From the UHGV virus genome UHGV-0385671: a stretch of 42,417 bases of DNA. One strand, given 5' to 3'. The notes under the pieces were generated by a model. It did not search any database and was not told the origin of the DNA. It saw nothing but the letters and a program-made list of their open reading frames with translations. The position numbers and the translations under genes were made by a program. Position 1 is the stretch's first letter, and each line of letters starts with the position of its first letter. Shown here piece by piece: positions 1 to 42,417 of this stretch. Source of the stretch: a virus.

Positions 1-844
1 AAATATTACTGATAAATTAGTTGTTAAATATGATGGCCCCGCACTAGCAGATCATAAAATAGATTTGGATGTTTTAACTGAGTCATTGAATGGACTAAAC
101 AACTTGCTTAAAGAAGTTAATTTGGTTGTCAATGGCACTAGTGAGTGTATTAATGTTGAGGTTGAGCCTTTTAAAGAAGGCTCATTTGAGTATTTGATTG
201 ATGTTATTCAAAATCCACTTGACCATTTGAATATATTAAGCATTATTGGGCTTGGAGGTACAGCTGCACTCGCAGCAGGAAATACTCTCATTGACTTAAT
301 TCGTCAGATCAATGGTAGGCAAATAAAACGGTTGACTTTAACAGCGGAAGGAGACTGTAAAATAGTTATGGATGATGGTGAGGAAATTATAGCCCCGTCA
401 TATTTCCGGCCTTTACTTGCCTCACCAAGCATACGCAAATCCTTATCGAAGTTAATTCATAATCCTTTGCAAAAGGAAGGATACGAATCGCTTAAAATTT
501 CAACTCAACAGGGGGTTGAGCTGATTAAGGTGCACGAAGATAATATTGAACCGTTCAGATATAGGCGCGTTCCTGTAGTGCAGTCCTTGTCTGAAAGGGT
601 GATTGAAGAGGCTCTAATCACATTTTTGACTATTCATAAGGATAAAAACACAGGCTGGCGAGTCAACTATGGCGATGACACAATCAGCGTGTCTATAGAA
701 GATACTGAGTTCTTACAACGTGTTAGTACGGGAAGAGAACCTGGTGTTTTTAGTGATGCTTACTTCGTTGATTTGCTCGTCCGTGAGAACTTGAATTCGC
801 TGGACAAAACGTACATAGTTGTTAAAGTACACGGCATCTTATAG
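1..844 (+). CDS. C-terminal part of junction-spanning hypothetical protein (about 290 aa in total), AT-rich accessory cassette gene 1
   Basis: Frame open from position 2 with no upstream stop; ORF track gives 65..844 but the frame is continuous from the window start. No recognised motif. Confidence 0.55.
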   Translation, partial: NITDKLVVKYDGPALADHKIDLDVLTESLNGLNNLLKEVNLVVNGTSECINVEVEPFKEGSFEYLIDVIQNPLDHLNILSIIGLGGTAALAAGNTLIDLIRQINGRQIKRLTLTAEGDCKIVMDDGEEIIAPSYFRPLLASPSIRKSLSKLIHNPLQKEGYESLKISTQQGVELIKVHEDNIEPFRYRRVPVVQSLSERVIEEALITFLTIHKDKNTGWRVNYGDDTISVSIEDTEFLQRVSTGREPGVFSDAYFVDLLVRENLNSLDKTYIVVKVHGIL

Positions 845-867
845 TAGATTCACATGGGGAGGGGGCT

Positions 868-1116
868 ATGATTGCTTTTGCTTTTTGGCTGGCTTTTTTT
901 AGCCTGCTTCCCGTACTATATTGGGTTCTTAAGATGGGGTTTGACCGGTTACGCTTTGCGCTTATGCCTAAACATCATCTTGTTCTTGAATGTGTTGACT
1001 CAGAAGGAGTTGTCCGTCGCGATGTCGTTGATGTCTCTTCTGATGATGAATTTTACAAAATTGCAATGAATGCCATTCGTGCTGGAAGATCAGTCAAAGG
1101 AGGGACGTTTGAGTAG
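868..1116 (+). CDS. Small membrane protein (82 aa, one N-terminal TM helix), accessory cassette gene 2
   Basis: ATG 868 preceded by GGGGAGGGGG SD; N-terminus MIAFAFWLAFFSLLPVLYWVL is hydrophobic; 23 nt after gene 1 stop. Confidence 0.5.
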   Translation: MIAFAFWLAFFSLLPVLYWVLKMGFDRLRFALMPKHHLVLECVDSEGVVRRDVVDVSSDDEFYKIAMNAIRAGRSVKGGTFE

Positions 1117-1639
1117 CGCCTCTAAACCTGATAGCTACGAAAAAGTCCCTCTGATTTCTAATGTTGCTGCTGGTGGCATCACTGGTTTTTTAACATTACT
1201 GGTGTCCTCGTGGGACGGTCGTTTTCCGTATATTGGTTCTGATTTAAATACAATAAAGCCATTTCTTTTATTAATGCTTCCCAGTTGCGCTATGTTTCTG
1301 GCACATTGGATAAAGTCGATTGGGTTTAAATGGTCCTTAGGTAGCGTTAATCGACAGTTATTAAGCATTAATAAGAAGAAAGAAAAAGAACTTCGCCGTG
1401 ATATTGAAAAGTACAAAAATGTTATTTCTAATGAAAAGATAGAGGACTTTAAAAGTCAACTTGAACAAGTATTACAAGATCGTCATGATATTATTTCTAA
1501 TAATTATGCACAGAAACTAAGAGAAAGAAATTATACACAAGAAAAATATCATGAGCATAAACAAACCGCTGCAAATGATAATATTGAGCTGCAAGGCATA
1601 CTGGAGAATCAGAAGTTCAATCAAAAAGGCATTGACTAA
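1070..1639 (+). CDS. Membrane protein with two predicted TM segments and a C-terminal coiled-coil-like region, accessory cassette gene 3 (alternative TTG start at 1109 after an AAGGAGG SD)
   Basis: Overlaps gene 2 end; hydrophobic stretches VAAGGITGFLTLLVSSW and IKPFLLLMLPSCAMFLAHWI; Lys/Glu-rich heptad-like C-terminus. Confidence 0.5.
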   Translation: MPFVLEDQSKEGRLSSASKPDSYEKVPLISNVAAGGITGFLTLLVSSWDGRFPYIGSDLNTIKPFLLLMLPSCAMFLAHWIKSIGFKWSLGSVNRQLLSINKKKEKELRRDIEKYKNVISNEKIEDFKSQLEQVLQDRHDIISNNYAQKLRERNYTQEKYHEHKQTAANDNIELQGILENQKFNQKGID

Positions 1640-1643
1640 ATTT

Positions 1644-1940
1644 TTATAATATCCTCTCTAGGTTCTTGCTATCCAGCACCACTACGGTAAAGCCCAGTTT
1701 TCGCAGACGTTCATGTTCGCGCAACTGGTCAGGCCGTGGTGGCTTGCCGGGTGATTTACATTCAACGAAAAAGATACGACCACCTGGTAGCAGGACAATG
1801 CGATCCGGTACCGAGCGGTGACCGGGAGATACAAACTTAAAGGCCACTCCGCCAGCTTTTTTCACTTCAGCGACGAGGTGCTTTTCGATAAGGCTTTCAC
1901 GTTCATAGGCCATCTGAATCCCACTCTTCAAAAAGCACAT
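1644..1940 (-). CDS. VRR-NUC domain nuclease
   Basis: PD-(D/E)XK-like motif PDRIVLLPGGRIFFVECK and overall VRR-NUC pattern; 98 aa; sits in the replication module. Confidence 0.8.
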   Translation of the reverse strand: MCFLKSGIQMAYERESLIEKHLVAEVKKAGGVAFKFVSPGHRSVPDRIVLLPGGRIFFVECKSPGKPPRPDQLREHERLRKLGFTVVVLDSKNLERIL

Positions 1941-2202
1941 TCAATTCCAGTTTCTCTGCCAACGCGTTTTCTGCACGTGCGCCGGCAGAGTACTCCCACT
2001 CTTTGAGCATATAAATCGTATCGGCACAGCGAAGCATTGTGAGGCAGATGTCCATATACTGAGCCTGTGTCAAACCATTGGGTACAGTTGCGGGGTTAAG
2101 CACAACATATCCCTTGTCCGTTAGCTTCTTTGCTGCGGAATGAAAAGCCGGGCGGTTAAATTGCTCGTAACCGCTCATCGGCCCGGCAACGTAAACGATC
2201 AT
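1903..2202 (-). CDS. DUF4406 / nucleoside 2-deoxyribosyltransferase-like protein
   Basis: N-terminal VYVAGPMSG motif and NPA motif typical of this family as I recall it; 99 aa. Confidence 0.65.
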   Translation of the reverse strand: MIVYVAGPMSGYEQFNRPAFHSAAKKLTDKGYVVLNPATVPNGLTQAQYMDICLTMLRCADTIYMLKEWEYSAGARAENALAEKLELNVLFEEWDSDGL

Positions 2203-2414
2203 TCTTCGACCACCTTACGCTTTTCACGCATATTCTGCATCAGGCAAAAATCAGATCTGCGTTCACTCCATTCCTGATTCAATTCGTGATGTGATTCGCG
2301 GTTGGCTTTTGCCCAGACCTTCGCTGCCCGGTCATATTCGCCGGATTGTTCAAGTCGCAAAGCCTCCCTTGCAGCCCTGTAATAAAGTGGATTGTCCCGG
2401 TATTTAAATGACAT
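2199..2414 (-). CDS. Small hypothetical protein (71 aa), possibly ANR-like small regulator
   Basis: ORF with 4-nt overlap to downstream gene in operon; helical pattern PLYYRAAREALRLEQSGEYDRAAKVWAKA; family assignment tentative. Confidence 0.4.
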   Translation of the reverse strand: MSFKYRDNPLYYRAAREALRLEQSGEYDRAAKVWAKANRESHHELNQEWSERRSDFCLMQNMREKRKVVEE

Positions 2415-2419
2415 AGGAG

Positions 2420-4483
2420 TTAATCCTTACGGTAGTGGTACGCCTCAAAACCGCCAGCGTTCAGTGGGATATCGGGCGCCCATTCGGGGTTAGTGGAGAG
2501 AAGCGCGGAAAGCGCTTTATCGTTGAAATCTTCTGTGTCAGGTGCTTCGGTGATCACCTCGTCGTGTACCGTCAGCACAATGCTGTAACCGGCATCTTCG
2601 ATAAGCGGCATGTTTCCGGCCAGAACGTCGCGGGCGGCCGCCTGGGTGACGTTCTCCACCAGCTTTCCGCCGTAGGTTTTGAGTCGTTGCCATTTACGCG
2701 AATAAGAGTTAACACCCATGTAGGTGATATTCCCTTGTTCGATAACCGGAGACGGGTAGCATACAGCGCGTCCGGATGGTAGCTGTATGCGTAGCCACGC
2801 GCCATCGCGGCGGATTTTAAGATAACCGCAATACAATGTTTTTTGCGGTGTGGCGATTGCAGTGCGGACGGTGCGCTCCAGTTCGTACCAGAAATCACAG
2901 GTCGCGGGATGCGCCCGGCGCCAGAGACGTTTAAGTGAGTCGCAGGCGATAAATACCCGTTCAGAAAGGCCGTAGGTTGACTTACGTTTAACCGATTCGC
3001 CGTACCAGCTTTTCGCCTCGCGGATAACATCGCGGGGAATGTTTGGCAGTGCAGCGTTTGCCAGCTCGTCGAGATCGAGACCGTAAACCAGTGCAAAAGT
3101 GATGAAGGCCGACACACCACCACCATAACCCAGACCGAGTTCCATGACTTTACCGATCTGACGCATGCGTTTATCAACATCATCTGGTGCAATATCAAAA
3201 GCTTTTGCATACGCCAGTTTATATAAGTCCGGACCCGTTCCGGCGTCGTACTCTCTGAATGCATTCAGTTTCCATTCTTCTCCTGCCAGCCATGACAGCA
3301 TACGGCCTTCAATGTTCGACAAGTCACTTACCACCAGTTTTTTGCCTGTTGGCGCGATAATGCAGCCACGTAACGCTGAACTGGTTAGTTCCATGATATT
3401 GTCAAACAGCAGGTCTGCACATCCGGCTTTCAGTGCTTCGATGCCTTCGTCTATTTGTTCCTGTTTTAGTGAAGGGCGGGGAAGGTTCTGGGGCTGGAAT
3501 AGCCGTCCGGCCCAGCGCCCGGTACGCGACGCCCCGCAGAACTGTAGCGTACCGCGTAAGCGCCCGTCGTGGCTTACGCCTTTCATTAGTGCCTTGTATT
3601 TACTGGTGCTGGTAGTACTGGCTTGCAGGCGGATAGCCAGCAGTTCTTTCACGGCAGATGGTAAATCGGGGTCGGCTATACGACGTTCTAGGGTACTGCG
3701 TTGCATGTCTGGTAGCTCCACACCGTAGGATTCAACGATGTGCTTAATCAACGCGTCCCGTTGTGTGGCTGCCTGCACTTCGCCATCAGTCATTTCCTGT
3801 GTACGCTTTGCCAGGCGCTTTTGCTCCTGGTCTACCGCTTCGATCGCAGCGCGCGCGAGTTGCATGTCCATGCAGACGCCCCGGTCGTTGATCTGCTGAT
3901 CACGATGCCAGAGCGCCAGCTCTGTCCCCTGATAATTCCACTTCGGCAGACGTTTATAGACTTCGCGCATTGCCTCGATATCCAGTCCGGCGTAAGCAAC
4001 AAAGCGCCGCCATTCTTCCGGGTGGGTTTTACTGGTGGCCCGACGCAGTTTGCTGTTTTTCGGGCGTGGCTTACAGAACAGCTGGATCAGCGCTTTACCT
4101 TCTTTGTCCTTCGCTTTGTCTTGCGGGACGCCTAGTACTTCGCAGAGTTCCCCCAGAGACCCCGGGAGACCGTGCGCCAGCGCCTGCACCATCGTGTCGC
4201 GCCAACGTTCGACTGGCGGTGCCAGTCGCGGCATTGCATAACGCAGAACGGTGCGGTCGAAGTGAGAGTTATGGAAATAAAGCAGGGTTTCAGGGTCTGC
4301 GATTGCTTCGTATAAGCCGTGTGGAATACCACCACCGGCAGTGATATCCCACACGTTTACTGGCCCGTCGTTGATAGCCCATGCGAAAAGCATCACTTCA
4401 ACGCCTTCGGCATACGCATGGGTACCGTTGTTGATCGGAATGTCACAATAGGTTTCCAGGTCGCCCCATAGTATATTGGACAT
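2420..4483 (-). CDS. Family A DNA polymerase with N-terminal 3'-5' exonuclease domain
   Basis: 687 aa; DnaQ-like exo motif near N-terminus (GDLETY) and PolA-like palm region; GAGGA SD 8 nt upstream of ATG. Confidence 0.9.
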
Positions 4484-4544
4484 AAAATATCCTCATATGG
4501 TATATGGTTAAATGCTAGATATCATGAATTAAAGGAGACAACTA

Positions 4545-5234
4545 ATGACTGTGGGTAATAAGAGACAGCCTAATGGATTACCTGAATATTATTGTCACCG
4601 TGGTAACGACATAAAAGATGCGATAGTTCGGGATTTTACTATTCAGCCTGTTGCACACCTGAAACTTATTACTGGACAAACTAAAACCAGTTATTCCGGT
4701 TATCCGTTAACCGATCAGTACTATTGTTTTTCATTTAAAAAACGCTCTGATGAAAATTGTACAGGGGCTTTTTTCTGTGGTAGAGATGTTGCAAAGGATT
4801 TCATTCGGCGTATCGGTTGTACAGAGCTGCCGTTATTTAATCCTATGAAATCGGATACCAGTGCAGCAATAGAACGTTCCGGTTCTGGCTCAGGTAGTTC
4901 TGGTATTACTGTCAAGCCAAATGCTGACAAAAAGCTATTTATAGACGCAGTTCGTCTGTTAATGACGCTGTGGGATTCAACAAGTAAGGGACAAACCCCA
5001 CTGGCGTCGGTTCTTAATGAAGCAATTTCTGGTGGTATAGATAAACCTCCAGAAATTAGACATGTAGTGGCGGTTAATACAATGTTGGGTAACACAAAAA
5101 ATACTTTAACTGGTCTGCTGGATAAAGCAAGAGCGAAGTATCCTGATGTGTTATTCAGAGATTTTGATTTCACGCCTCTTAACGAGATTGTAAAACGTTC
5201 AAAATCATATAATAAGCATCCCCCTTGTTATTGA
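4545..5234 (+). CDS. Hypothetical Cys-rich protein with Gly/Ser linker, encoded antisense inside the leftward replication operon
   Basis: Strong SD AAGGAGA 7 nt upstream of ATG 4545; Cys/His cluster at N-terminus (CHRGN..C..C..C), SGSGSGSSG linker; lower GC by eye than neighbours. Confidence 0.6.
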   Translation: MTVGNKRQPNGLPEYYCHRGNDIKDAIVRDFTIQPVAHLKLITGQTKTSYSGYPLTDQYYCFSFKKRSDENCTGAFFCGRDVAKDFIRRIGCTELPLFNPMKSDTSAAIERSGSGSGSSGITVKPNADKKLFIDAVRLLMTLWDSTSKGQTPLASVLNEAISGGIDKPPEIRHVVAVNTMLGNTKNTLTGLLDKARAKYPDVLFRDFDFTPLNEIVKRSKSYNKHPPCY

Positions 5235-5869
5235 GTATCAGACACTGTATTGGTAGGAAGGCCTATCATTTCATTTAATGTCTCTCGATGTACCGCTGGT
5301 GCTAAAGGGACTGGCGGTGCGTCTGTTGGAAGCAGTTCTTTAGCTTCGGGCCATACATCCAGTAATCGTTTTACTGTCCGAACTTTATTTAGAGCCGCGC
5401 TGACGTTCTGTATGATTTCGGTTTCATCACTTTTAATTTGTGTGTAGAGAGCATCAAAGCTATAAAACTCCGTTACCAGAGGATCTTCGCCAAGTAGAGT
5501 AAATTCTGCAGGTGCTATTTTATTAATATGCTCGGGGGCTCCTGATTCATAACCTCTGTAGTTGCCATTGAAATAAATGTTTGCTCTGGCTCCAGCCAGA
5601 TTGAGATATATGCAGCAATCTTTTCGAATTAAAGAACTATTGGTTTTTAATGAATCAGGGATTTTTGTGACCATGGATTCAATCTTTTTTATATTTTTTA
5701 ATATTTCAGCTTCTTTCTCTACGCCCCCGATAGCTGCAAGCCGAACACGTTCGGCCCATTCAACACGAGCAGCTCGTAGTGCTGATTTACGTTTGGGGAT
5801 ACCCGCTTTCTCAAGTGCGTTATTGATGATTTGAGTTTTAAGGTGATTAGTTAATACGGGCTGTGACAT
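5228..5869 (-). CDS. Hypothetical early protein (213 aa); start chosen at ATG 5869 rather than the GTG at 5899
   Basis: GAGGGAAAG SD upstream of ATG 5869; the longer GTG start lies inside a perfect hairpin. Confidence 0.55.
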   Translation of the reverse strand: MSQPVLTNHLKTQIINNALEKAGIPKRKSALRAARVEWAERVRLAAIGGVEKEAEILKNIKKIESMVTKIPDSLKTNSSLIRKDCCIYLNLAGARANIYFNGNYRGYESGAPEHINKIAPAEFTLLGEDPLVTEFYSFDALYTQIKSDETEIIQNVSAALNKVRTVKRLLDVWPEAKELLPTDAPPVPLAPAVHRETLNEMIGLPTNTVSDTQ

Positions 5870-5889
5870 TATACTTTCCCTCATGAGAT

Positions 5890-5910
5890 CCCCCAGCACG
5901 TAGCTGGGGG
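5890..5910. other. Perfect 8-bp stem-loop (CCCCCAGC-ACGTA-GCTGGGGG) in the 5' leader of gene 5228..5869
   Basis: Inverted repeat read directly; followed on the plus strand by a U-rich tract, so it could terminate antisense transcripts or act as a processing or translational element. Confidence 0.4.
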
Positions 5911-5920
5911 ATGAATATTT

Positions 5921-6469
5921 TTAAATTAGTGCTTCAGCATCAGCACCTTCGCTGATATCGTCAAAATCGTCAGCGCTTGCCACTCCGCCGCCAGCGAATG
6001 CATCGCCGTCTCGCAGGAACTGGACTCCGCCGAGTGAGGCATTAATGCGTTTACCGAAATTATTGTCCTGTGCCCAGATATCGATAACGGCGTTTACATA
6101 GCACCCTGCATAGGGACGTCCATCAGCCTGAATTAGTGGCGAACGATCGCGATCAAGAACAGCTGGGCGCGCTTTGTTAGCAGCATTCAGGAAGAAATTA
6201 CCGGGAAAGCCTTCATACTCTGCTTTTTCATCACCATCATGTAGGCACAGATTGAGTTTTTTCTCCAGCTGGCTATAAATGGGCTCCCACTTTTCTCCCC
6301 ATTTTTCCTTCGCTACCTGCTTCATAGCTTTACGGATTTCTTCCAGTTGTGGGTGTTTGGGTGACATTAAAAATACTGCGGAGAAACGCGGATCGCCTTC
6401 GCCGTTTACAGTTTTAGCTTCAAACAGAGACGGGAAGGCCAGACGAACATTGTTCAGCTTCAGTTTCAT
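5921..6469 (-). CDS. DUF2815-family phage protein (commonly paired with DUF2800; putative ssDNA-binding)
   Basis: N-terminus MKLKLNNVRLAFPSLFEA and gene order next to DUF2800 and PolA. Confidence 0.7.
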   Translation of the reverse strand: MKLKLNNVRLAFPSLFEAKTVNGEGDPRFSAVFLMSPKHPQLEEIRKAMKQVAKEKWGEKWEPIYSQLEKKLNLCLHDGDEKAEYEGFPGNFFLNAANKARPAVLDRDRSPLIQADGRPYAGCYVNAVIDIWAQDNNFGKRINASLGGVQFLRDGDAFAGGGVASADDFDDISEGADAEALI

Positions 6470-6484
6470 GGGTATTTCCTTAAA

Positions 6485-7786
6485 TCAGATGAGGTCTGCG
6501 GTTAGCGTATCGTCGGATACGTCGTCGAAATCATTTACAGGGTTGATATTGAGTGCGGGGCGTGGGTCTGACTCGGGAACGACGGTGGGTTTACCATCAG
6601 CTCGTGTTATCAGTGCCTCGACTTTTGACCAACGGCGCGGACTGGCCTTTTTGATAAGTTTTTCGGCTTTTGTGGGACTAATAAGTTTAAAGTCGAATAC
6701 TTCTTCAGTTTTGTACCTGAACTGGTCTTTCAGCAGCGCGCGGGCGGCTTCTTCATCGCTCCAGGCGCGATTACCCTGTTTACCAGTAACCAACTTAAAG
6801 CCCGGTACCGGATGCCCGGCGTTCAGCTCACTGTTCACCCGGTCGCGCACAGCCTTTAGCCAGGATTCAATAAAGTCGGCCTGGCTGTAGATCTCCGCCA
6901 GTTCCTCGATTGTCAGAAGCGGTACGCGCGAGCTGGCATCAGTGATGATTTCACTAACCGGTTTGGTCAGGTCTTCGAAATCGCTGGCAGCAGTTTGCAT
7001 GTGCTGCATTTTCTGAGCAATGCAGACTGCTTTGGCTTTGCAGAATCGGCACTGTTTTTCCCCGGGGGTGAAGTTTTCCAGCGGCAGGGTTTCGACGCCT
7101 TCGCAATCGGCGATGTTGAACATCACGATTACACTGGCTGCCGCTTCCTGCGCCCGTTCGCCGAACGCCTGGAGCTCTTCCACCGTCAGAGCCCACTCTG
7201 AAACGTGGTTAAGCCGCGGCTGGTGGATGAACAGGCGCACCGTCTCGAAGTCGTACAGCATGCTGAACTGTTCGAGTGCGCCAAGGGCATACAGCTGCAG
7301 CTGCTCGTTCTGCTCGGCGTCGACCCGCACACCCTTACCGTATTTCAGATCGTGGATCTGCAGCTCGTTGCCCGCGATGATTACGCCGTCGGCGGTACCG
7401 AATGACTCGTCTACGCCCACGATATGGGAGAAGTCGACACGCTGCTCGACCAGCAGCTCATTGCCCTGCGCCAGCGCCCAAACAGTGTCGACGTAACGAC
7501 CAACGGCTTCGACCATTTCCTCATCTACCTGCGGGCCGGAAGTATCATCCGGGTGCTCAGCAAGAGGATAGGATCCGAGGAACATCGCGACGGTGCAACC
7601 TGCATAGTGCTCCGGGTGGCTCTGGCGGTTGCGCAGCACCTTTTCGGCAAGTGCATGCGCTGCAGTGCCCTCGATTGCGAAAGTTGTTTCTTTATCCGGT
7701 TGTGTGGCCTCCAGCGCCAGACTTCCTGGGCAGCGCATCCATCGATGCGCTGATGATGGAGAAAGTTGTGCGTGAACGTCTGGCAT
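6485..7786 (-). CDS. DUF2800 PD-(D/E)XK nuclease, Cas4-like with C-terminal Cys cluster
   Basis: N-terminal [15 protein letters not shown] motif and C-terminal [10 protein letters not shown] four-Cys cluster. Confidence 0.8.
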
Positions 7787-7788
7787 GA

Positions 7789-10153: not shown

Positions 10154-10167
10154 AAACAATTTTTGTT

Positions 10168-32314: not shown

Positions 32315-32331
32315 ATAAAATTAACGTTATC

Positions 32332-32354: not shown

Positions 32355-32373
32355 GCTTTCTGGAGCCTACTAA

Positions 32374-33126: not shown

Positions 33127-33479
33127 TGCGATACAGACGTGAAGACGCCGATGGCGATTACACCTTTGGCAGCGGTGATGACACCTGGCTGATTAACTCG
33201 CCTGAGGCCGTAGCGCAGGCTGTGAAAACGCGATTCGAATTGTGGTATGGGCAATGGTTTCTTGATACCACAGAGGGAACACCGTGGATCCAGTCCGTGC
33301 TGGGCAGGCAAAAACCAGAAACTTACAACCTGGCGATCAGAAAACGCATTCTGGAAACGCAGGGCGTTAAATCAATCCTCTCTTTCAATACGACGGTGGA
33401 TACCACGACCCGACGTGTCATGTTTTCCGCTGAAATCGACACTCTCTATGGAATAACGACTGTTACATCGGAGGCGTAA
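33126..33479 (+). CDS. Baseplate protein (W / Mu gp46-like)
   Basis: ATGA overlap; 117 aa; position. Confidence 0.5.
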   Translation: MRYRREDADGDYTFGSGDDTWLINSPEAVAQAVKTRFELWYGQWFLDTTEGTPWIQSVLGRQKPETYNLAIRKRILETQGVKSILSFNTTVDTTTRRVMFSAEIDTLYGITTVTSEA

Positions 33480-34678: not shown

Positions 34679-35355
34679 GCAAATACACCGAACTAATCAC
34701 GAACTACCACGCCACCAAACCTAAATTTCTTGCACATGTTGATCTGATGACCCGGCCGCTTATTGATGTTGCGGCTGCGACCAGAGGGCTGATTACTGCA
34801 TTTGATATTGACTCTGCGGTTGGTGTGCAACTTGACATTCTGGGATTGTGGATCGGACGTAGCCGTGTTGTCAGCCAGCCTATCTCAGGTGTCTATTTCA
34901 GCTGGGATACCGACGGGCTTGGATATGATCAGGGTGTATGGCAGGGACCATACGATCCTGATTCAGGATACATGTATCTCAGCGATGAAACTTATCGTGT
35001 CATTCTTAAAGCGAAGATTGCGATTAATAACTGGGACGGACGGAATGATTCGCTTCCGGCAATTCTTGACGCGGCAACAGCAGGATCCGGGGTACGAATG
35101 CAGATAGTCGATAACCAGGACATGACGATATCGGTCTGGGTCTTTCCTGATACTGATATTTCAGATGTATCGCATGAGTTAATTGCGGCAATTAAACAGG
35201 GGTATCTCACAGTAAAAGCCGCCGGGGTATGGGCGGGTGGCATTGAAACACCTTCGGTGGAAACCCCATCGGAAGGTTCAAAATTTTTTGGTTTTGATAT
35301 GGATAACGAATTCATCAGTGGTTTTGATGTAGGGGCATGGGGAGTATTACTCTGA
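34675..35355 (+). CDS. Tail protein, YmfQ/DUF2313-like (Mu gp48-like)
   Basis: 226 aa; ATGA overlaps; position. Confidence 0.55.
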
Positions 35356-36452
35356 TGGCAAAAAATGACTTTAAAGCATTCGCAACGGGTAAAAATGCCA
35401 ATGTTATGTCGCAGGAGGAATGGGAAGCGTTGCCTGCGCTTTTATCCGGATTTACAGCAGGGAAAGCATCCAGTGCGCAAGTCAATAAGGTTATTCGACA
35501 GGCCAGCTTTATTGCATCTGCAATGGCACAATATACAGCAAATGAAAGTGGACTGGATGTACAGGACGATGGCGATCAGGCCGGCTTTATCGCAAAAATG
35601 TCGTCTGCATTAGATAAGAACTATCAGAGAATTAATGCCATACTTACCGCACTTGCTAATCTTTCAGCATCCGAAAACAAATTACCGTATTTTACCAATC
35701 AAGATACCGCTAATTTGGCTGACCTGACACAGGTTGGGCGAGATATTTTGGCAAAAAGCTCTGTTGCTGATGTCCTTAAATATCTTGGTTTGGAAAATAA
35801 TTCGACCTTTCCTGTAGGTGCCCCGATCCCGTGGCCATCAGATACAGTTCCATCTGGTTATGCTCTGATGCAGGGACAGACTTTTGACAAGTCTGCATAC
35901 CCGAAACTTGCAGCCGCTTATCCGTCAGGCGTGATCCCTGATATGCGTGGCTGGACGATTAAGGGCAAGCCCGCCAGTGGTCGTGCCGTATTGTCTCAGG
36001 AACAGGACGGCATTAAATCGCACACCCACAGCGCCAGTGCTTCAGATACAGATTTAGGGACAAAAAACACATCATCGTTTGATTATGGAACTAAATCTAC
36101 GAATAACACTGGTGCGCATACCCATAGCGTTAGCGGAACAGCAGCTTCAGCAGGTGCACATACGCATCCGATATCTCAGGGGGATAATGCTAACGTTAGC
36201 TCCGGTAGAGTAGCTTCGTCGAACTCTGCTCAAACTCACTTAGGTGCAACGAATTCTGCTGGCGCGCATACCCACTCAGTATCAGGTACCGCAGCAAGTG
36301 CTGGGGCGCATACACATACTGTCGCTATTGGTGCACATACGCACTTTGTTGCGATTGGTTCACATGGACACACCATCACCGTTAACGCTGCTGGTAACGC
36401 GGAAAACACCGTCAAAAACATCGCATTTAACTATATTGTGAGGCTTGCATAA
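35355..36452 (+). CDS. Tail fibre protein with C-terminal His-x-His repeat tip (StfE-like)
   Basis: GGGGAG SD 9 nt upstream of ATG 35355; six HxH motifs (GAHTHS x4, GAHTHF, GSHGHT); followed by tfa. Confidence 0.75.
36111..36317 (+). repeat. Two copies of a 19-codon segment encoding identical [19 protein letters not shown] with 13 of 19 codons synonymously different
   Basis: Copy 1 at 36111..36167, copy 2 at 36261..36317; includes AGC/TCA serine codon-family switches. Confidence 0.7.
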
Positions 36453-37024
36453 TGGCATTCAGAATGAGTGAACAATCACGGACCATAAAAATTTATAATC
36501 TGCTGTCCGGAACTAATGAATTTATTGGTGAAGGTGATGCATATATTCCACCCCATACAGGGCTGCCTGCAAACAGTACCGATATTGCACCGCCAGATAT
36601 TCCGGCTGGCTTCGTGGCTGTTTTCAACAGTGATGAGGCATTGTGGCATCTCGTTGAAGACCATCGGGGAAAAACCGTCTATGACGTGGCTTCCGGCGAC
36701 GCGTTATTTATTTCTGAACTTGGCCCATTACCGGAAAACGTCACCTGGTTGTCGCCGGATGGGGAGTTTCAGAAGTGGAACGGCACAGCCTGGGTGAAAG
36801 ATGCAGAAGGAGAAAAACTGTTCCGGATCCGGGAGGCGGAAGAGAAAAAGGCAAGATTAATCCAGGAAGCGACTGATAACATAACAATTCTGCAGGATGC
36901 TGTTAATTTTGAAATGGCAACTGATGAGGAAGTATCGATGCTATCTTCCTGGAAAAAATACCGGGTATTAGTGAGTCGGATTGATATAAATACAGCTCCG
37001 GATATTGTATGGCCAGAGCTGTGA
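36452..37024 (+). CDS. tfa: Tail fibre assembly protein (Tfa; e14 TfaE-like)
   Basis: N-terminus [61 protein letters not shown] matches my recollection of E. coli e14 TfaE. Confidence 0.85.
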
Positions 37025-37034: not shown

Positions 37035-37580
37035 TTATGTGTGAGATGAGTTATAAATAATTTCAGAGTGAAATTTAGTAATGAATGTGGAGTCATCAGG
37101 AATGTCATGCAGTACCAATGCATGAGCTCCTATTTTTACATCATTCCCTATATGCACTTTGCCACCAAGGATGGTGGCGTTACAGCCAATGGTTACATTA
37201 TTTCCTATGACAATATCCATATCATTAAATTCACCGCGAAGTCCAATAGTTACTCCAGGCTTAATTGAACAATTTTCACCTATTGTAACTTTGTGACCGA
37301 TAACAACGCCATTGAGATAAGATATGTCAAACCCTTTACCAATATTTACAGTTAAGGGAACGGTTACATTGTATTTATCAAGAATGAAACGTTCTATTTT
37401 TCCCGCAATCTTCCGACAGTATCCGCCTTTATCAAAAAGGTATTTGGCTATGCGCCACCAAAATAAATAACGTAATCTTCTGTGTTTTATTGCGCGAACA
37501 ATTGCTTTTCGCCAGGAGAAAGGGCGTTTATAACCTATTACTTCATAGTGTATACACTTTTTAAGTTCACTAATATTCAT
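37035..37580 (-). CDS. Left-handed beta-helix (hexapeptide-repeat) acetyltransferase, WcaB/serine acetyltransferase-like; candidate surface-polysaccharide modifier
   Basis: Tandem hexapeptide repeats (VVIGHKVTIGENCSIKPGVTIG..., IVIGNNVTIGCNATILGGKVHIGNDVKIGAHALV); AT-rich; convergent with tfa. Confidence 0.7.
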   Translation of the reverse strand: MNISELKKCIHYEVIGYKRPFSWRKAIVRAIKHRRLRYLFWWRIAKYLFDKGGYCRKIAGKIERFILDKYNVTVPLTVNIGKGFDISYLNGVVIGHKVTIGENCSIKPGVTIGLRGEFNDMDIVIGNNVTIGCNATILGGKVHIGNDVKIGAHALVLHDIPDDSTFITKFHSEIIYNSSHT

Positions 37581-37661
37581 ATGTCTATTATTCAGTAAAG
37601 ATAATTCTGTAACTTATTATTATATTAAGTTTAATGAGATTTTTCTACAGTTTACTGTCTT

Positions 37662-37793
37662 ACTCTCACGCCGGAGCAATGGGCGCAGGCTGGACGACAA
37701 ATTGCATCAGGAGTTTCTCGCCAGAAAGTGGCGATCATCTATGATGTTGGCGTATCGACTTTGTATAAGAAGTTTCCGGTCGGAGATGAATGA
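37662..37793 (+). pseudogene. 3' remnant of a Pin/Gin/Hin-family DNA invertase gene (C-terminal HTH only; catalytic domain missing)
   Basis: Frame encodes LTPEQWAQAGRQIASGVSRQKVAIIYDVGVSTLYKKFPVGDE, aligning with my recollection of the Pin C-terminus (LTKAEWEQAGRLLAQGIPRKQVALIYDVALSTLYKKHP); in-frame stop 27 nt upstream, no start. Confidence 0.65.
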
Positions 37794-37874
37794 AACCGTG
37801 GCACGTCGTATGCAAGAACGTGCCACGACTGGCTGATAAGCTTGTAAAAATCTTGAACAGGGAGTGGAGCATTT

Positions 37875-38522
37875 CTATGAAGCTAATTTGTTTAATTTCA
37901 TTTGTAGCGACTTTACTTCTTGGTCGATAATGTTGAATCCCTTATTGACGGCATCTCTTAGCTCTGCATCAATATTTTTTATCCCTTGAGCATAATCTAC
38001 CATTACATCTATTTTTTCATCATGTAATCTCTTATACATGGTTTTATCTTTGTTATTGTCAGCCATACCAATAAGGATTTTTTCATAATCCTCAATGAGT
38101 TTGTTGTTTCCTTTAAATGATTGTATTAATGACCGTGAATATGTGTAGATATTAATTATTGAGTCTCTGGCAGAATCATTTAGTTTTGCAATGACATTCG
38201 CATTTTGCTCATAGAATGTGAAATTATCATCCCCTACAGGGAAAGTGAGAATTAACATCTGTCCGGGTTTGATATTATCAATGTGTGTTTTCATCCTTTT
38301 ATTATATAAATTGATTAGGGTGAAAACTTCTCCCTTAACACCTTTTAATACTGAAAGTTGCAATTCAAGGGATTCTCTTTCTGTCTCTACTTTAGACAGC
38401 TTAGCTTGTTGGGTAACTCCTTTTAGGGTAAACCATCCGCCAATAAGAGTACCAACTAGAGCTGTGAGGGAGGAGGATAACCATCCAGGAATGCTATTTA
38501 AAAAATTACTAAATTCACTCAT
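37875..38522 (-). CDS. Membrane-anchored hypothetical protein (215 aa; N-terminal TM helix, coiled coil, C-terminal domain)
   Basis: Hydrophobic WLSSSLTALVGTLIGGWFTL near N-terminus; AT-rich; between invertase remnant and integrase. Confidence 0.55.
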   Translation of the reverse strand: MSEFSNFLNSIPGWLSSSLTALVGTLIGGWFTLKGVTQQAKLSKVETERESLELQLSVLKGVKGEVFTLINLYNKRMKTHIDNIKPGQMLILTFPVGDDNFTFYEQNANVIAKLNDSARDSIINIYTYSRSLIQSFKGNNKLIEDYEKILIGMADNNKDKTMYKRLHDEKIDVMVDYAQGIKNIDAELRDAVNKGFNIIDQEVKSLQMKLNKLAS

Positions 38523-38582
38523 TATAAGTACTCGCTAATATTGAACGATATATATATATCAAATTATTATAAAACTCGTCAG

Positions 38583-39014
38583 CTACTGGAGAAGGCTACC
38601 TGAACTTCGATCTATTCCTGCATCCATATAGTTGATGGTCTTCTGGAGCTCTTCGATTAGGGCAACAGCTTTTGCTCGAGAAATGCATATTAGTTGATCC
38701 GGAAATTCTTGTAAGGACCAGTTTGGTATACTGGCCATGTTATCAGTGAAGGATGCAGACAAGTAAACTTCATTGGTAACCAGAGAATAGCTTACCTCAA
38801 AATTGGTGAGCTCCGGCAAACTGCTAATGTTTGACTCTTTTCTGCGCATAACGTTATCCAGGACTGTGATTATGTACAGGTGATGGTCTTCAATTTTGAA
38901 GAGGGAGTCAAGGGGAGTCTCAAATGAACCGTTATAGAAAGGGGGGATCTTTGTGTTGCTGAACTTATGCAAAATTTTTTTGCACCATAAATCCAACAAC
39001 ACATTCAATAACAC
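38583..39014 (-). CDS. Hypothetical protein (143 aa; start uncertain, alternative ATG at 38849)
   Basis: AT-rich ORF upstream of and co-oriented with 37875..38522; no convincing SD for the longest start. Confidence 0.45.
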   Translation of the reverse strand: MLLNVLLDLWCKKILHKFSNTKIPPFYNGSFETPLDSLFKIEDHHLYIITVLDNVMRRKESNISSLPELTNFEVSYSLVTNEVYLSASFTDNMASIPNWSLQEFPDQLICISRAKAVALIEELQKTINYMDAGIDRSSGSLLQ

Positions 39015-39317
39015 ATTGCTGTATTACTATGAAAATAAATGTGTTTTTATTTGATCTCACACATATCACAATTAATACAGCGTTTAGTAATTAGTAAAGA
39101 CATTTCAATGAATTACCGTTAAATCATTTTAAAATCAGTAAGTTGTATCGAGTTTGTATGCTTTACTGTCATTAACTTACTGTATGTTGATCCAGTGTAT
39201 TTAACCTTGATAAACTCAGTCCAGCAACACAAAACCGCAACACATTACATTTTGTCCCGTAGAAAAGACTTGTATGTGTGAGCTTGTTTTCTGCGCCTAC
39301 GCAGATAAGGATTGAGA

Positions 39318-40715
39318 ATGCCGCGCACTGTAACACATAATCCGGATAGCCCCAATAATGACGATGTTTTAGCCGCATCTGAAAAATGGGACGCCTGTAA
39401 ACCCCCCTATACCAGCGCACACATGAAAATCTGTGTTGCTGCCGCCAAAATCATCCTCGCTGCTTCCGGTGTGGCTCGCCGTTCCAAATACGAAAAAGAG
39501 AACTATCTCCGTATCGATTTCAGCAAAGCCGGTAAGGTTACATTTTACGCCGAGTTTCCAAAAAAGATGGGCCTCAAAGGTAAAAAGCTCGGCGAGTGGC
39601 CGGAGCTCGCTATCCAGCTGGCGCGCGAAAAAGCGCTAGGTATGGCTGACGGTGGCCTGCGGGCAGAGTCCGTACATGCAGCGCTGGAAATGTACCGGGA
39701 TGACCTCAAAGCCAAAGTCGCACGGCAGAAGCTGAGCCCGGACAGTTTCACAACCTACGGGGTGCGTATAGACCGGATTAAAGCAACGTTCGGCGAGCGC
39801 GAGGTGTTCAGCGACGTAACATACAATCGGCTGGTGGAAGTGCTGGACGAGTGGATCGCCACTCGCTCGAACAATAACGCCCTGGAGTTGTTTGCCGAGC
39901 TCCGTCGGTTCTGGAAGTTCTGCGCACCTACTCTTTGCAACGGCCGCAATGTTGCCGCCAGTCTGCCAGATGATTATGTTTCCTCCCGCGTACAGAAACC
40001 TACCCCCACACGGCTTTTTACCGATATTGAATCAATCGCCCGACTCTGGCTCAATGTTGCTGCCTGCGCCTCTGTACACCAGAAGAATGCTGTTCGCTTC
40101 ATGATCATCACTGGCGTTCGTCCGATTAATGTCCATAACCTGCGCTGGGACTACGTTCACGAGGAGGCTGGTGAAATTGTTTATCCGGAAGGGGTTATCG
40201 GCATGCGAGGGGCTATGAAAACACAAAAGGCTTTCCGCCTGCCGATAACGCCTGAGATCCGGCGGATTATCGACGAGCAGAAAGCCTGGCGTGATTCAGT
40301 TCCTGAGTGCAATAGGGATTATGTATTTTTGCAGCCACGTGATCCAATGCAGCCATTTTCAAAACGATCACTGGATAAGCTAGTGAAAACATACAGCCCG
40401 GACGGGGCTGTAAAAGGAATAAAACATGATGGGACTGTTAAAGGGAAAGACGGTGCATTTAATACTATGTGCCGTAAATTCCTTAAGAGCAATGTTATTG
40501 CCTTGATGAAGGAAAGAGGCTATTCCCGCTCAGACCGAAGGGAAATCAGCCTCCTTTGCCTTCATCACTCCAGCAAGTCAGATGACCCGATGGCAGAACA
40601 TTACGACTTTTCTGATGAGATTTTACAGGAAGAGATTGCGTTGAAGCGCGAAGCTTTCGAAGCTCACGAGCGGAGCATACTTGCGCAGGTGGCATTGCTA
40701 CGACGGCGAGGTTAA
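39318..40715 (+). CDS. int: Tyrosine integrase (P4-like family)
   Basis: AAGGA SD upstream of ATG 39318; catalytic-region motifs TGVRPINVHNLRWDYV, MKTQKAFRLPI, LCLHHSSKS, EHYDFS. Confidence 0.8.
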   Translation: MPRTVTHNPDSPNNDDVLAASEKWDACKPPYTSAHMKICVAAAKIILAASGVARRSKYEKENYLRIDFSKAGKVTFYAEFPKKMGLKGKKLGEWPELAIQLAREKALGMADGGLRAESVHAALEMYRDDLKAKVARQKLSPDSFTTYGVRIDRIKATFGEREVFSDVTYNRLVEVLDEWIATRSNNNALELFAELRRFWKFCAPTLCNGRNVAASLPDDYVSSRVQKPTPTRLFTDIESIARLWLNVAACASVHQKNAVRFMIITGVRPINVHNLRWDYVHEEAGEIVYPEGVIGMRGAMKTQKAFRLPITPEIRRIIDEQKAWRDSVPECNRDYVFLQPRDPMQPFSKRSLDKLVKTYSPDGAVKGIKHDGTVKGKDGAFNTMCRKFLKSNVIALMKERGYSRSDRREISLLCLHHSSKSDDPMAEHYDFSDEILQEEIALKREAFEAHERSILAQVALLRRRG

Positions 40716-40912
40716 TACCGGCTGCGACACTTTTGAATAAAAGCGTCTACATTGCGGCGCTCATAACGAACTACTTTTGCACTGAAACGAATTGGTGCCA
40801 GGATAGCCCGATGACGATGCTTAATATTCCACTCACATAGCGTTTTCTGTGTAATACCTAACTTTTGGCATACTTCATCCGGGGTGAGTAAATCGTCGGG
40901 TTTCTCGCTCAT
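40712..40912 (-). CDS. AlpA-family HTH protein (likely excisionase/regulator)
   Basis: 66 aa; LTPDEVCQKLGITQKTLCEW and VVRYERRNVDAFI pattern; 4-nt overlaps with the helicase gene and convergent with int. Confidence 0.7.
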   Translation of the reverse strand: MSEKPDDLLTPDEVCQKLGITQKTLCEWNIKHRHRAILAPIRFSAKVVRYERRNVDAFIQKCRSRY

Positions 40913-42306
40913 GCTATACCTCTCTTTTTCATGGCATCGAGCAGGATGTCCTGCACTGTTCGTTTTGAGTTGCGCCGCTCCATCACCATTTCGTCCATAG
41001 TGTCGGCAGCAATAATGTGGTGAATAAATACCGGACGATTGTGTCCGGCCTGTATCTGCCTGGTGGGGCCGATACGTTCAATAATTTGCTGATATTGCTC
41101 CAGGTCCCACCAGTGTGAGAAAAATACCAGTATATTCCCGCCGTCCTGCATGTTCAGGCCGTGGCCCGCGCTGGCTGGGTGTGCAAAGAGAACAGGAATC
41201 TTTCCGGAATTCCAGTCGCGCAGTGTCTGTGGATCCTGGTCGAGGTGACGACCGCGAGGGAATGCTTTAAGCAAGCGTTCAAGATCGTGTTTCCAGTGAT
41301 AAGCAACCAGCACAGGTGCGCCAGCTGCTTCGGTCAGTATGCTGTCCAGCGCCTGTAGTTTGGTGTCATGCAGTTCTGACCAACTTCCGGTGTCGTCTGT
41401 GTATACTGCGCCACTGGCGATTTGAAGACACTTCAGTGTCTTTGCCGCGGCGTTCGGTGCTTCGATACCTTCGCCATTCAGCTCGAGGAACATTTCCTTT
41501 TCCATTTCACGATACTGCTGACGGGCCTTCGGCGGCATATCCACGCGGATTACGTTATGGATGGGGTCTTTGATATCGAACCAGTCGGCCGCATCCAGCG
41601 AGAGGGTCACATCGGCTAATGCTCGCTGTATTTCACCCTGTGAGTGAGCAAAAGGCTCCAGTTTAGTCCAGCTCTGTCCCGGAAACTGTATCGAGTTGAA
41701 CCAGCGTGAGGTAAACGCGCCGTAAGTGCGCCCGAGACGTTGCCCTTGGTCCACAAACCACGATTGTCCCCACAAATCTACCAGGCCGTTCGGTGCTGGC
41801 GTACCGGTGAGATTTATCCAGCGCCGGACATACTTATGCGCCACTTTGCCCAGCGCCGCCGCGCGCTTACCACCACCTCGCAGCCGGAAGGATTTTAGCC
41901 GGGTGCTTTCATCTGGAATGACAATACCGAACGGCCATCGTTCTCCCAATTCTTCAACCAGCCAGACAAGGTTATCGTAGTTGATGGTGAACACGCTTGC
42001 GTTGCTGTTCGCCAGCGCCGTAGAGCGCGCTTTGGCATTACCAACAATCGGCTGCACCTCGATATTGCGCAAATGCCCCCACTTCACTGCTTCATCCGGC
42101 CAGGTGTTTGCTGCAACACGTAGCGGCGCGAGGACCAGTGCGGGGCGTGTTTCTGCCCCTGCCATAAAAAGATCTTCCAGCGCAGTGAGCGTTGCCACGG
42201 TTTTACCCATTCCCATGCCTGCCCAGATGTTGCAGCGCATAATGTCGATTTGATGATTGATGATGAGATCTTGGTAGGGGTGAGGTGAAAATATAGCATA
42301 GTCCAT
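40909..42306 (-). CDS. SNF2-family helicase (superfamily 2 ATPase)
   Basis: Walker A GMGMGKT, DEAD-like box IPDEST, C-terminal helicase motifs; GGAGATA SD upstream of ATG 42306. Confidence 0.8.
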   Translation of the reverse strand: MDYAIFSPHPYQDLIINHQIDIMRCNIWAGMGMGKTVATLTALEDLFMAGAETRPALVLAPLRVAANTWPDEAVKWGHLRNIEVQPIVGNAKARSTALANSNASVFTINYDNLVWLVEELGERWPFGIVIPDESTRLKSFRLRGGGKRAAALGKVAHKYVRRWINLTGTPAPNGLVDLWGQSWFVDQGQRLGRTYGAFTSRWFNSIQFPGQSWTKLEPFAHSQGEIQRALADVTLSLDAADWFDIKDPIHNVIRVDMPPKARQQYREMEKEMFLELNGEGIEAPNAAAKTLKCLQIASGAVYTDDTGSWSELHDTKLQALDSILTEAAGAPVLVAYHWKHDLERLLKAFPRGRHLDQDPQTLRDWNSGKIPVLFAHPASAGHGLNMQDGGNILVFFSHWWDLEQYQQIIERIGPTRQIQAGHNRPVFIHHIIAADTMDEMVMERRNSKRTVQDILLDAMKKRGIA

Positions 42307-42373
42307 GGTATTGTATCTCCATGAATGAACTTATGTAGTAATAGCTTAATTATTTATTTCGAAAGGAACAGTT

Positions 42374-42417
42374 ATGACCTCAGCTTATACAGATGTCCAG
42401 CAAGAAGAAAATATTAC
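42374..42417 (+). CDS. N-terminal fragment of junction-spanning hypothetical protein (accessory cassette gene 1); continues at 1..844
   Basis: ATG at 42374 preceded by AAAGGAA Shine-Dalgarno; MTSAYTDVQQEENIT then runs off the window end in the same frame as ORF 1..844. Confidence 0.5.
   Translation, partial: MTSAYTDVQQEENI
42409..42417. repeat. 9-nt terminal identity (aaatattac) with positions 1..9; signature of a circular or overlapping-end sequence
   Basis: Last 9 nt aaatattac equal first 9 nt; reading frame of ORF 42374.. continues into 1..844 with or without collapsing the repeat. Confidence 0.7.

What the first reader, a model, noticed from the sequence alone, without database searches (positions are those of the whole stretch)
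1..42417. Window is a complete circular or circularly permuted phage genome, not a chromosomal prophage
The first 9 nt (aaatattac) are identical to the last 9 nt. The ORF starting at ATG 42374 (good SD) runs off the 3' end and continues in the same frame at position 2, through to the stop at 844; the frame is preserved whether or not the 9-nt repeat is collapsed. A full gene set is present and no host-like genes flank it.
Basis: seen in the sequence. Interest (0 to 1): 0.6.

Follow-up and report, generated by a model that had tools for sequence, protein, structure and literature searches.

The report
Complete temperate coliphage genome, circularised
The window is one full turn of the circular map of a known temperate E. 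coli phage that normally integrates at the host gene yfhL; the 9 bases repeated at its two ends are a leftover of circularising the sequence, so the finding is correct but ordinary.

Summary
The first and last 9 nt are identical (AAATATTAC), and this is the only end overlap (chance about 4e-6). The ORF starting at ATG 42374 reads through the join to TAG 842-844.

Public sequences show the two ends are neighbours. The joined sequence with a single copy of the 9-mer is 100% identical to E. coli chromosomal prophages, where it encodes a 292-aa protein. No sequence examined carries the duplicated 18-mer.

The window is not arranged as an integrated prophage. It contains an intact attP at 39057-39073 (17-bp core), next to a tyrosine integrase and an excisionase-like gene. 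In lysogens the same DNA is split at this core and sits between yfhL and yfhH. Collapsed to 42,408 bp and rotated at attP, the window is colinear and 99.9-100% identical to the whole prophage of strain Z1322HEC0009, apart from one IS66 insertion there.

So this is a complete, intact-looking temperate myovirus genome in excised or circular form, opened at an arbitrary point inside an accessory gene. The terminase resembles headful types, which points to circularly permuted virion DNA; that is inferred, not shown.

The phage is already in public databases, so interest is low. The gene cut by the window ends is a candidate anti-phage defence gene (PADLOC PDC-S42).

The parts
1..9 (.). First copy of the terminal 9-mer AAATATTAC
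   Evidence: It is single-copy in all public relatives.
42409..42417 (.). Second copy of the terminal 9-mer, a redundant circularisation overlap
   Evidence: The duplicated 18-mer is absent from all 18 fetched loci.
42374..42417 (+). 5' end of the junction-spanning ORF (292 aa once the 9-mer is collapsed), with SD AAGGA at 42363-42367
   Evidence: The same gene is called as 292 aa in chromosomal copies.
10..844 (+). Remainder of the junction-spanning ORF, a candidate defence protein (PADLOC PDC-S42, weak DUF7946)
   Evidence: The AlphaFold model has pLDDT 84 and no solved-fold match.
868..1639 (+). Two small accessory ORFs downstream (82 aa at 868-1116; 189 aa at 1070-1639, or 176 aa as annotated by RefSeq, starting about 1111). 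Together with the junction ORF they form a low-GC block.
   Evidence: phrog_15510, phrog_15878, both of unknown function. The block is replaced by other genes in vB_EcoM-611R5.
39057..39073 (.). attP core TCACACATATCACAATT, identical in attB, attL and attR
39047..39103 (-). Phage-borne replacement 5' end of host yfhL (MSLLITKRCINCDMCE...). It fuses to the yfhL body at attL after integration.
   Evidence: yfhL is annotated as intact in lysogens.
39318..40715 (+). Tyrosine integrase (465 aa)
   Evidence: Pfam Phage_integrase E 4e-07; RefSeq annotation. It is always next to yfhL in lysogens.
40712..40912 (-). Small HTH_17 protein, probably the excisionase
40909..42306 (-). SNF2/DEAD-type helicase, the last complete gene before the window's 3' end
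1644..8691 (-). Leftward replication module: VRR-NUC, DUF4406, ANR regulator, family A DNA polymerase (2420-4483), Nmad5, DUF2815, and DUF2800/PD-(D/E)XK nuclease (6485-7786)
9485..12637 (.). Immunity and early region: CI/LexA-like S24 repressor (9485-10198, minus strand), Cro-like HTH (about 10229-10441, plus strand), VapE-type primase/helicase (10445-12637, plus strand)
12915..15082 (+). Antiterminator Q and the lysis cassette (holin, GH24 endolysin, Rz)
15144..19114 (+). Packaging genes: TerS (Terminase_2, 15144-15716), TerL (16026-17648), portal (Phage_portal_3, 17648-19114)
18966..37024 (+). Head, contractile tail, baseplate, tail fibre and tail-fibre assembly genes (myovirus type)
37035..39014 (-). 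Low-GC accessory genes between the tail fibres and attP: hexapeptide acetyltransferase (37035-37580), a remnant invertase HTH, and two hypothetical ORFs

Best explanation
The window is the complete 42,408-bp genome of a temperate E. coli myovirus. It is written as one turn of its circular map, opened at an arbitrary point inside an accessory gene, with 9 nt of the opening point written at both ends.

The phage lysogenises through a tyrosine integrase that recombines a 17-bp attP core (39057-39073) with the same 17 bp in the first codons of the host gene yfhL. The phage carries a replacement promoter-proximal end of yfhL, so the gene stays intact after integration.

After induction the phage excises to the circle seen here and replicates with its own family A polymerase, VapE primase and SNF2 helicase module. 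It is most probably packaged by a headful mechanism from concatemers. That would give circularly permuted, terminally redundant virion DNA, which assembles as a circle.

Shown here: the contiguity of the ends, the att sites, the completeness and the gene content. Inferred: the headful packaging and the assembly origin of the 9-nt overlap.
For: End overlap and ORF continuity.

Single-copy junction in public sequences: 100% identity in two E. coli chromosomes and at least 97.6% in 17 genomes; five IMG/VR prophage contigs hold it internally; nine loci carry the exact 879-nt ORF and none carries the duplication.

Chromosomal matches to window 37000-41000 break at 39057-39093, with yfhL on one side and yfhH on the other. 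The attP, attB, attL and attR sequences share the 17-bp core with arms swapped as expected.

The rotated window is colinear and 99.9-100% identical to the full prophage of NZ_CP148570.1, apart from one IS66 insertion.

Integrase, HTH_17, S24 repressor, polymerase, primase, helicase, TerS, portal and tail genes are all present.

The TerL nuclease half matches Sf6 gp2 (4idh, E 2e-27) and the TerLs of P22-like and APSE phages. TerS belongs to Terminase_2.

The window ends lie about 15 kb from the terminase genes, as expected for an arbitrary break rather than a packaging end.

yfhL is a published prophage insertion site (PMC12029490).
Against: No other attP-form copy was found in IMG/VR or the JGI metagenomes, nor among the 24 longest contigs encoding the identical integrase. 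The circular form therefore rests on this one record.

Nine nt is not the overlap left by common assemblers (k-mer sized), so the exact origin of the duplication is unexplained.

Headful packaging is inferred only from moderate TerL and TerS similarity. Packaging signals could not be identified in SEN34, the distant named relative (PMC5261728).

No reads are available, so a cycle extracted from an assembly graph of a lysogen cannot be excluded.
Confidence: 0.9

Rival explanations
1. The window is an integrated prophage cut out at its boundaries. The 9-nt direct repeats would then be the att core or a target-site duplication.
For: Direct repeats at both ends of a phage-sized segment are what attL and attR or a target-site duplication look like. 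The same phage does occur as a chromosomal prophage.
Against: In chromosomes the 9-mer is single-copy in the middle of a 292-aa ORF, with phage DNA on both sides. The real att core is the 17-mer at 39057, and the host flanks are yfhL and yfhH. The integrase lies next to the internal attP, not at a window end. No transposase is present.
Confidence: 0.01
2. The 9-mer is a genuine physical end of linear virion DNA. It would be either a 9-nt cohesive end written at both ends of the record or a very short direct terminal repeat.
For: Cohesive ends of 9-12 nt exist in other phages (own knowledge: lambda 12 nt, mycobacteriophage L5 9 nt). A single copy in prophages is also what a cos or terminal-repeat phage would show.
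Against: The site lies inside the coding sequence of a low-GC accessory gene that is missing from close relatives. It is about 15 kb from terS and terL, whereas cos and pac sites normally sit beside or within terS. The TerL nuclease half groups with Sf6 and P22-like headful enzymes. Relatives that lack this gene would lack the site while keeping 98.5%-identical TerL.
Confidence: 0.03
3. The circle is a computational artefact: a cycle pulled from the assembly graph of a lysogen (or a tandem double lysogen) through the repeated att core, with no free circular phage DNA in the sample.
For: attL and attR share 17-37 identical bases, which a small-k graph would collapse into a cycle. The attP form was not found anywhere else. 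One 208-kb ENA contig ends about 40 nt from the att core, 299 nt upstream of the integrase, which shows that assemblies do branch or break at this site.
Against: Usual assembly k values (55 or more) exceed the 17-bp core. The window lacks the IS insertion and frameshifts seen in chromosomal copies and has every long gene intact. Even if true, the sequence would still equal the excised genome, so the biological reading would not change.
Confidence: 0.06

Closest known systems
Prophage at yfhL in E. coli Z1322HEC0009 (NZ_CP148570.1, about 4214376-4259485) and S1-IND-01-A (NZ_CP145657.1)
   Same: Same phage: 99.9-100% identity over the entire 42,408 bp, with the same gene order, the same junction ORF, and the same integrase and att core.
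   Different: It is integrated, so it is permuted at attP and flanked by yfhL and yfhH. The Z1322HEC0009 copy also carries an IS66 insertion with an 8-bp duplication between xis and the helicase, five indel positions that give annotated frameshifts, and G instead of A at the base after the core.
Escherichia phages vB_EcoM-606R2, 611R5 and 689R2 (ON470579, ON470588, ON470582)
   Same: They are 96-98% identical over about two thirds of the genome: the replication, lysis, packaging, head and tail modules, and the same integration locus.
   Different: Those records are prophage cut-outs that start at the helicase gene and run into the host genes yfhH, pgpC and tadA. They carry other accessory genes (a hypothetical protein and a TIR-like protein) where the window has the PDC-S42 block, and a different tail-fibre and invertase region.
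Salmonella phage SEN34 (genus Brunovirus) and Citrobacter phage Omnitron
   Same: The structural and packaging module is 84-87% identical at nucleotide level over about 8.5 kb. SEN34 is a temperate myovirus with lambda-like regulation (PMC5261728).
   Different: Only about a third of the first 25 kb aligns. SEN34 has a lambda-type O replication gene, whereas the window has a polymerase A, VapE and SNF2 module. Membership of the same genus was not established.
Headful (pac) packaging of P22 and Sf6-type phages
   Same: The TerL C-terminal half is homologous to Sf6 gp2 (4idh, E 2e-27). Terminase_2 TerS is present, and the genome has no identifiable fixed ends.
   Different: Only residues about 249-521 align and identity is about 30%. 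The portal and head are of a different type (DUF1073, DUF2213). The pac site and the permutation have not been demonstrated.

Membership tests
Excised/circular form of an integrase-dependent temperate phage | Intact attP (P arm, core, P' arm) contiguous in the sequence, next to the integrase gene | tested here: met
   The core is at 39057-39073 with both arms. The arms are separated into attR and attL in lysogens. The integrase lies at 39318-40715.
Excised/circular form of an integrase-dependent temperate phage | The sequence ends are adjacent to each other in independent copies of the element | tested here: met
Excised/circular form of an integrase-dependent temperate phage | Content equals the full attL-to-attR span of the prophage | tested here: met
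   every base of the 42,408-bp circle aligns with the prophage at 99.9-100%.
Excised/circular form of an integrase-dependent temperate phage | Physical evidence of a circular or permuted molecule (reads or PCR across the junctions) | not testable with these tools
   No reads are available. No second attP-form contig was found.
Integrated prophage bounded by att or target-site direct repeats | The terminal direct repeats are the recombination core, and host DNA abuts them | tested here: not met
   The 9-mer is single-copy inside a phage ORF in chromosomes. The att core is a different, internal 17-mer.
cos phage with cohesive ends | Genome ends beside the terminase genes, with a cos-type TerL | tested here: not met
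   The ends lie about 15 kb from terS and terL. TerL's nearest solved relative is the headful enzyme Sf6 gp2.
Headful-packaging (pac) phage | TerL and TerS homologous to characterised headful terminases | tested here: inconclusive
   Partial homology to Sf6 gp2 and to P22-like and APSE TerLs at about 30-35% identity. TerS belongs to Terminase_2.
Headful-packaging (pac) phage | Circularly permuted, terminally redundant virion DNA | not testable with these tools
   This needs virion DNA reads or restriction analysis.
Plasmid prophage (P1, N15 or SSU5 type) | Partition or protelomerase genes, and occurrence as an extrachromosomal replicon | tested here: not met
   All 159 junction matches in complete E. 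coli genomes are on chromosomes and none is on a plasmid. No par or tel genes are annotated.
Transposable (Mu-like) phage | DDE transposase, variable insertion sites and a short target duplication | tested here: not met
   No transposase is present. The insertion site is fixed at yfhL in every lysogen examined.
Genus Brunovirus (SEN34-like) | At least 70% nucleotide intergenomic similarity to the exemplar (the ICTV genus threshold as stated in PMC12945033) | tested here: inconclusive
   Only about 33% of the first 25 kb aligns to SEN34, at 83.6% identity. A full VIRIDIC-type value was not computed, but the threshold is very unlikely to be reached.
PADLOC candidate defence system PDC-S42 (junction ORF) | Full-length match to the PDC-S42 profile | tested here: met
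   PDLC05015, E 4.7e-40, residues 17-288 against profile positions 5-286 of 302.
PADLOC candidate defence system PDC-S42 (junction ORF) | Demonstrated protection against phage infection | not testable with these tools
   The PDC families are candidates only (own knowledge of PADLOC-DB). No paper was found.

The most novel reading that the evidence does not exclude
The low-GC three-gene block cut by the window ends may be a phage-borne anti-phage (superinfection-exclusion) system of an uncharacterised kind. The block comprises the 292-aa PDC-S42/DUF7946 protein, an 82-aa ORF and a 176-189-aa ORF. It sits in a swappable hotspot between the SNF2 helicase and the VRR-NUC gene, where sister phages carry a TIR-like protein instead. 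The main protein has a confident predicted fold with no solved-structure relative.
Probability: 0.35. Interest if true: 0.35.

Novelty: already known. Interest (0 to 1): 0.12.

Why it matters
The main value is for bookkeeping. The window should be treated as a complete phage genome of 42,408 bp, not 42,417 bp, with one real gene split across its ends. The 9-nt repeat should not be read as a terminal repeat, a cos end or an att site. Anything found in this window should be interpreted in the context of a temperate, yfhL-integrating E. coli myovirus. The phage itself is already represented in public genomes at 99.9-100% identity, so the topology call adds no new biology. Three side observations are modestly useful leads: the replacement 5' end of yfhL at attP, the candidate defence block at the junction, and the module exchange relative to the vB_EcoM-6xx phages.

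Tried and rejected
- I searched for other attP-form copies with exact patterns spanning attP, using both the A variant and an A/G-degenerate version. There were no hits in IMG/VR or in the JGI metagenomes.
- I looked up the identical integrase in public assemblies. The 24 longest contigs read were all the chromosomal attL form; shorter contigs of 20-50 kb could not be inspected.
- Two E. coli records seemed to cover the attP region contiguously (H81, H82). They are a degraded prophage remnant with IS5 and IS1, not an intact attP.
- I tested whether the window is the induced urinary coliphage '923' of PMC12945033. That assembly is only 15,102 bp, so it is not.
- No paper was found for vB_EcoM-606R2 or for PDC-S42.
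- A Foldseek search of the junction protein's model against the PDB gave nothing below E 0.01. There were only local OB-fold-like matches of about 90 residues, which I do not interpret.
- The window has no tRNA genes and no long direct or inverted repeats.
- I considered and rejected the att/target-duplication, cos-end, plasmid-prophage and Mu-like readings; the reasons are in the rival explanations and membership tests.
Full report
**Observation.** The window begins and ends with AAATATTAC. A script confirmed that this is the only suffix-prefix overlap up to 200 nt. The 9-mer occurs nowhere else on either strand, and the chance of such an end match from the window's base composition is about 3.9e-6. 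The ORF starting at ATG 42374 has an AAGGA Shine-Dalgarno 6 nt upstream. It leaves the 3' end after 14 codons plus 2 nt, resumes in frame at position 2 and stops at TAG 842-844. Joined with the 9-mer collapsed it encodes 292 aa. Uncollapsed it encodes 295 aa with NIT duplicated. The description is accurate.

**Are the two ends really neighbours?** I built the collapsed junction (700 nt of the 3' end plus window 10-909) and searched all complete RefSeq E. coli genomes.
- It is 100% identical in one piece to two chromosomes (NZ_CP148570.1 and NZ_CP145657.1).
- It is at least 97.6% identical over its full length in 17 genomes.
- All 159 matching places are chromosomal and none is on a plasmid.
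- A 46-nt exact pattern across the join occurs inside five IMG/VR prophage contigs.
- RefSeq and other gene callers annotate this gene as 292 aa.

The ends are therefore contiguous in nature, and the 9-mer is a single-copy sequence written twice. The true unit is 42,408 bp.

**Is the window arranged as a prophage?** It is not. Matches of window 37000-41000 to E. coli chromosomes fall into two classes that break at 39057-39093. The left part (tail-fibre assembly, acetyltransferase, hypotheticals) lies next to yfhH. The right part (integrase, HTH, helicase) lies next to yfhL. Direct comparison gives textbook att sites:
- attP (window): ...tttgatcTCACACATATCACAATTaatacagcg...
- attB (K-12): ...ttcgggtTCACACATATCACAATTgatgcattt...
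- attL: host left arm plus phage right arm.
- attR: phage left arm plus host right arm.

Most lysogens examined carry exactly the window's right arm at attL. The core lies in codons 11-16 of yfhL. The phage carries a substitute start of the gene (MSLLITKRCINCDMCE, against host MALLITKKCINCDMCE), so an intact 86-aa YfhL is annotated in lysogens. yfhL is a published prophage insertion site (PMC12029490). The window thus contains an uninterrupted attP. Beside it lie a 465-aa tyrosine integrase (39318-40715; Pfam Phage_integrase) and a 66-aa HTH_17 protein that is probably the excisionase.

**Completeness.** I collapsed the window to 42,408 bp, rotated it at attP and aligned it to the prophage of NZ_CP148570.1. 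It aligns end to end at 99.9-100% identity. The only structural difference is an IS66 element in the chromosomal copy, with an 8-bp overlap of the flanking alignments that marks its target duplication. Genes annotated as frameshifted or partial in that chromosome are intact ORFs in the window: DNA polymerase, DUF2800, VapE, a baseplate protein, baseplate J and the tail fibre. The gene set is that of a functional temperate myovirus:
- S24/HTH repressor and a Cro-like protein;
- family A DNA polymerase, DUF2800 PD-(D/E)XK nuclease, DUF2815, VapE primase/helicase, SNF2 helicase and VRR-NUC;
- antiterminator Q, holin, endolysin and Rz;
- TerS (Terminase_2), TerL, portal (Phage_portal_3), head, contractile tail, baseplate, tail fibre and tail-fibre assembly protein.

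No tRNA genes and no long repeats were found.

**Relatives.** The closest deposited phages are vB_EcoM-606R2, 611R5 and 689R2, at 96-98% identity over about two thirds of the genome. Those records are prophage cut-outs that begin at the helicase gene and end in the host genes yfhH, pgpC and tadA. This independently places the family at the same chromosomal site. The structural module is 81-87% identical to Salmonella phage SEN34 (Brunovirus), Citrobacter phage Omnitron and Hafnia phage yong1. SEN34 is a temperate myovirus whose packaging signals were not identified (PMC5261728).

**How it most likely works.** The att sites and genes show that the phage integrates at yfhL by tyrosine recombination and excises to a 42.4-kb circle. 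Packaging is inferred. The C-terminal half of TerL is homologous to the headful terminase gp2 of Sf6 (4idh, E 2e-27) and to another solved large-terminase nuclease domain (8dkr). In the phage collection it matches the TerLs of P22-like phages, APSE and PB1-like phages at about 30-35% identity. TerS is of the Terminase_2 family. The window ends lie about 15 kb from these genes, inside an accessory gene that close relatives lack while keeping 98.5%-identical TerL. That location makes a cos or terminal-repeat end at the 9-mer very unlikely. A headful phage gives circularly permuted, terminally redundant DNA, which assembles into a circle that software opens at an arbitrary place. That fits what is seen. 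Why exactly 9 nt remain is not explained by common assembler overlaps.

**What cannot be settled.** No second attP-form sequence was found in IMG/VR or the JGI metagenomes, nor among the 24 longest contigs encoding the identical integrase. Two apparent full-coverage chromosomal hits were a degraded remnant. Without reads I cannot separate three possibilities: permuted virion DNA, an excised circle in an induced culture, or a cycle extracted from an assembly graph through the att repeat. All three give the same sequence and the same biological reading.

**The gene at the join.** The 292-aa protein matches PADLOC's candidate defence family PDC-S42 over its full length (E 4.7e-40) and weakly matches DUF7946. 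It has about 40 homologues, nearly all unnamed and mostly from Enterobacterales. An AlphaFold model built on 24 sequences is confident (pLDDT 84, pTM 0.71) but has no solved-structure match below E 0.01. Together with two small ORFs (phrog_15510 and phrog_15878, both of unknown function) it forms a 39-41% GC block in a genome that is otherwise mostly 46-57% GC. In vB_EcoM-611R5 the block is replaced by other genes, and that phage also carries a TIR-like protein nearby. This looks like an exchangeable accessory or defence hotspot, and it is the only part of the finding with some residual novelty.

**Verdict.** The phage is an ordinary integrating temperate phage that is abundant as a prophage. 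The 9-nt repeat is a representation artefact rather than a biological terminal repeat. The physical form of the source molecule is untested. The phage is already present in public databases at 99.9-100% identity, so novelty is nil and interest is low.

Noticed in passing
window 42374-42417 + 10-1639: The gene split by the window ends matches the PADLOC candidate defence family PDC-S42 (E 4.7e-40). It heads a low-GC three-ORF block that is replaced by other genes in sister phages, which also carry a TIR-like protein nearby. The predicted fold is confident but has no solved relative.
   Followed up: partly
window 39047-39103 (minus strand) and attP core 39057-39073: The phage integrates into the 5' end of the yfhL coding sequence rather than the more usual 3' end. 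It supplies a new upstream region and the first 10 codons (2 amino-acid changes), so yfhL expression in lysogens may come under phage-derived control. In the free phage this segment is an 18-codon mini-ORF.
   Followed up: partly
window 39074; loci L004, L007, L008, L015: The att region is polymorphic. The window and most lysogens have A after the 17-bp core. One strain has G. Two IMG/VR prophages have a host-like stretch extending about 20 nt further into the P' arm, which suggests variable crossover points or gene conversion at attL.
   Followed up: partly
L002 1801-4416 (NZ_CP148570.1), corresponding to window about 40944-40951: An IS66 element (tnpA, tnpB, tnpC) with an apparent 8-bp target duplication is inserted at the xis-helicase boundary of the otherwise identical chromosomal prophage, within the last codons of the helicase ORF. 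It is absent from the window.
   Followed up: partly
window 31159-32314: Two ORFs (257 and 131 aa; the 257-aa one matches phrog_17809, unknown function) form a 41.6% GC island in the middle of the baseplate module. This is probably a moron.
   Followed up: no
window 37035-38522: A 36-37% GC segment after the tail-fibre genes encodes a hexapeptide-repeat acetyltransferase (possibly an O-antigen or surface-modifying moron), a 215-aa ORF with no family match, and a remnant of an invertase HTH. Sister phages have an invertible tail-fibre segment with a DNA invertase at this position.
   Followed up: partly
L018 (ENA ERZ28436098 NODE_9, 208,604 bp), locus 1-300: This chromosomal contig ends about 40 nt from the att core, 299 nt upstream of the integrase. 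An assembly break there would be expected if attL and attP forms coexisted in the sample.
   Followed up: no
L001 40486-42739 (ON470588.1) and the equivalent ends of ON470579.1: The GenBank 'complete genome' phage records vB_EcoM-611R5 and 606R2 include the host genes yfhH, pgpC and tadA at one end and start abruptly at the helicase gene. They are therefore prophage-prediction cut-outs, not virion genomes.
   Followed up: yes
window 1644-8691 and 10445-12637: The replication module (family A polymerase, DUF2800 nuclease, DUF2815, Nmad5 'nucleotide modification' protein, VapE, SNF2, VRR-NUC) differs from the lambda-type O gene reported for SEN34. The family is therefore mosaic: a shared virion module with different replication modules.
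   Followed up: no
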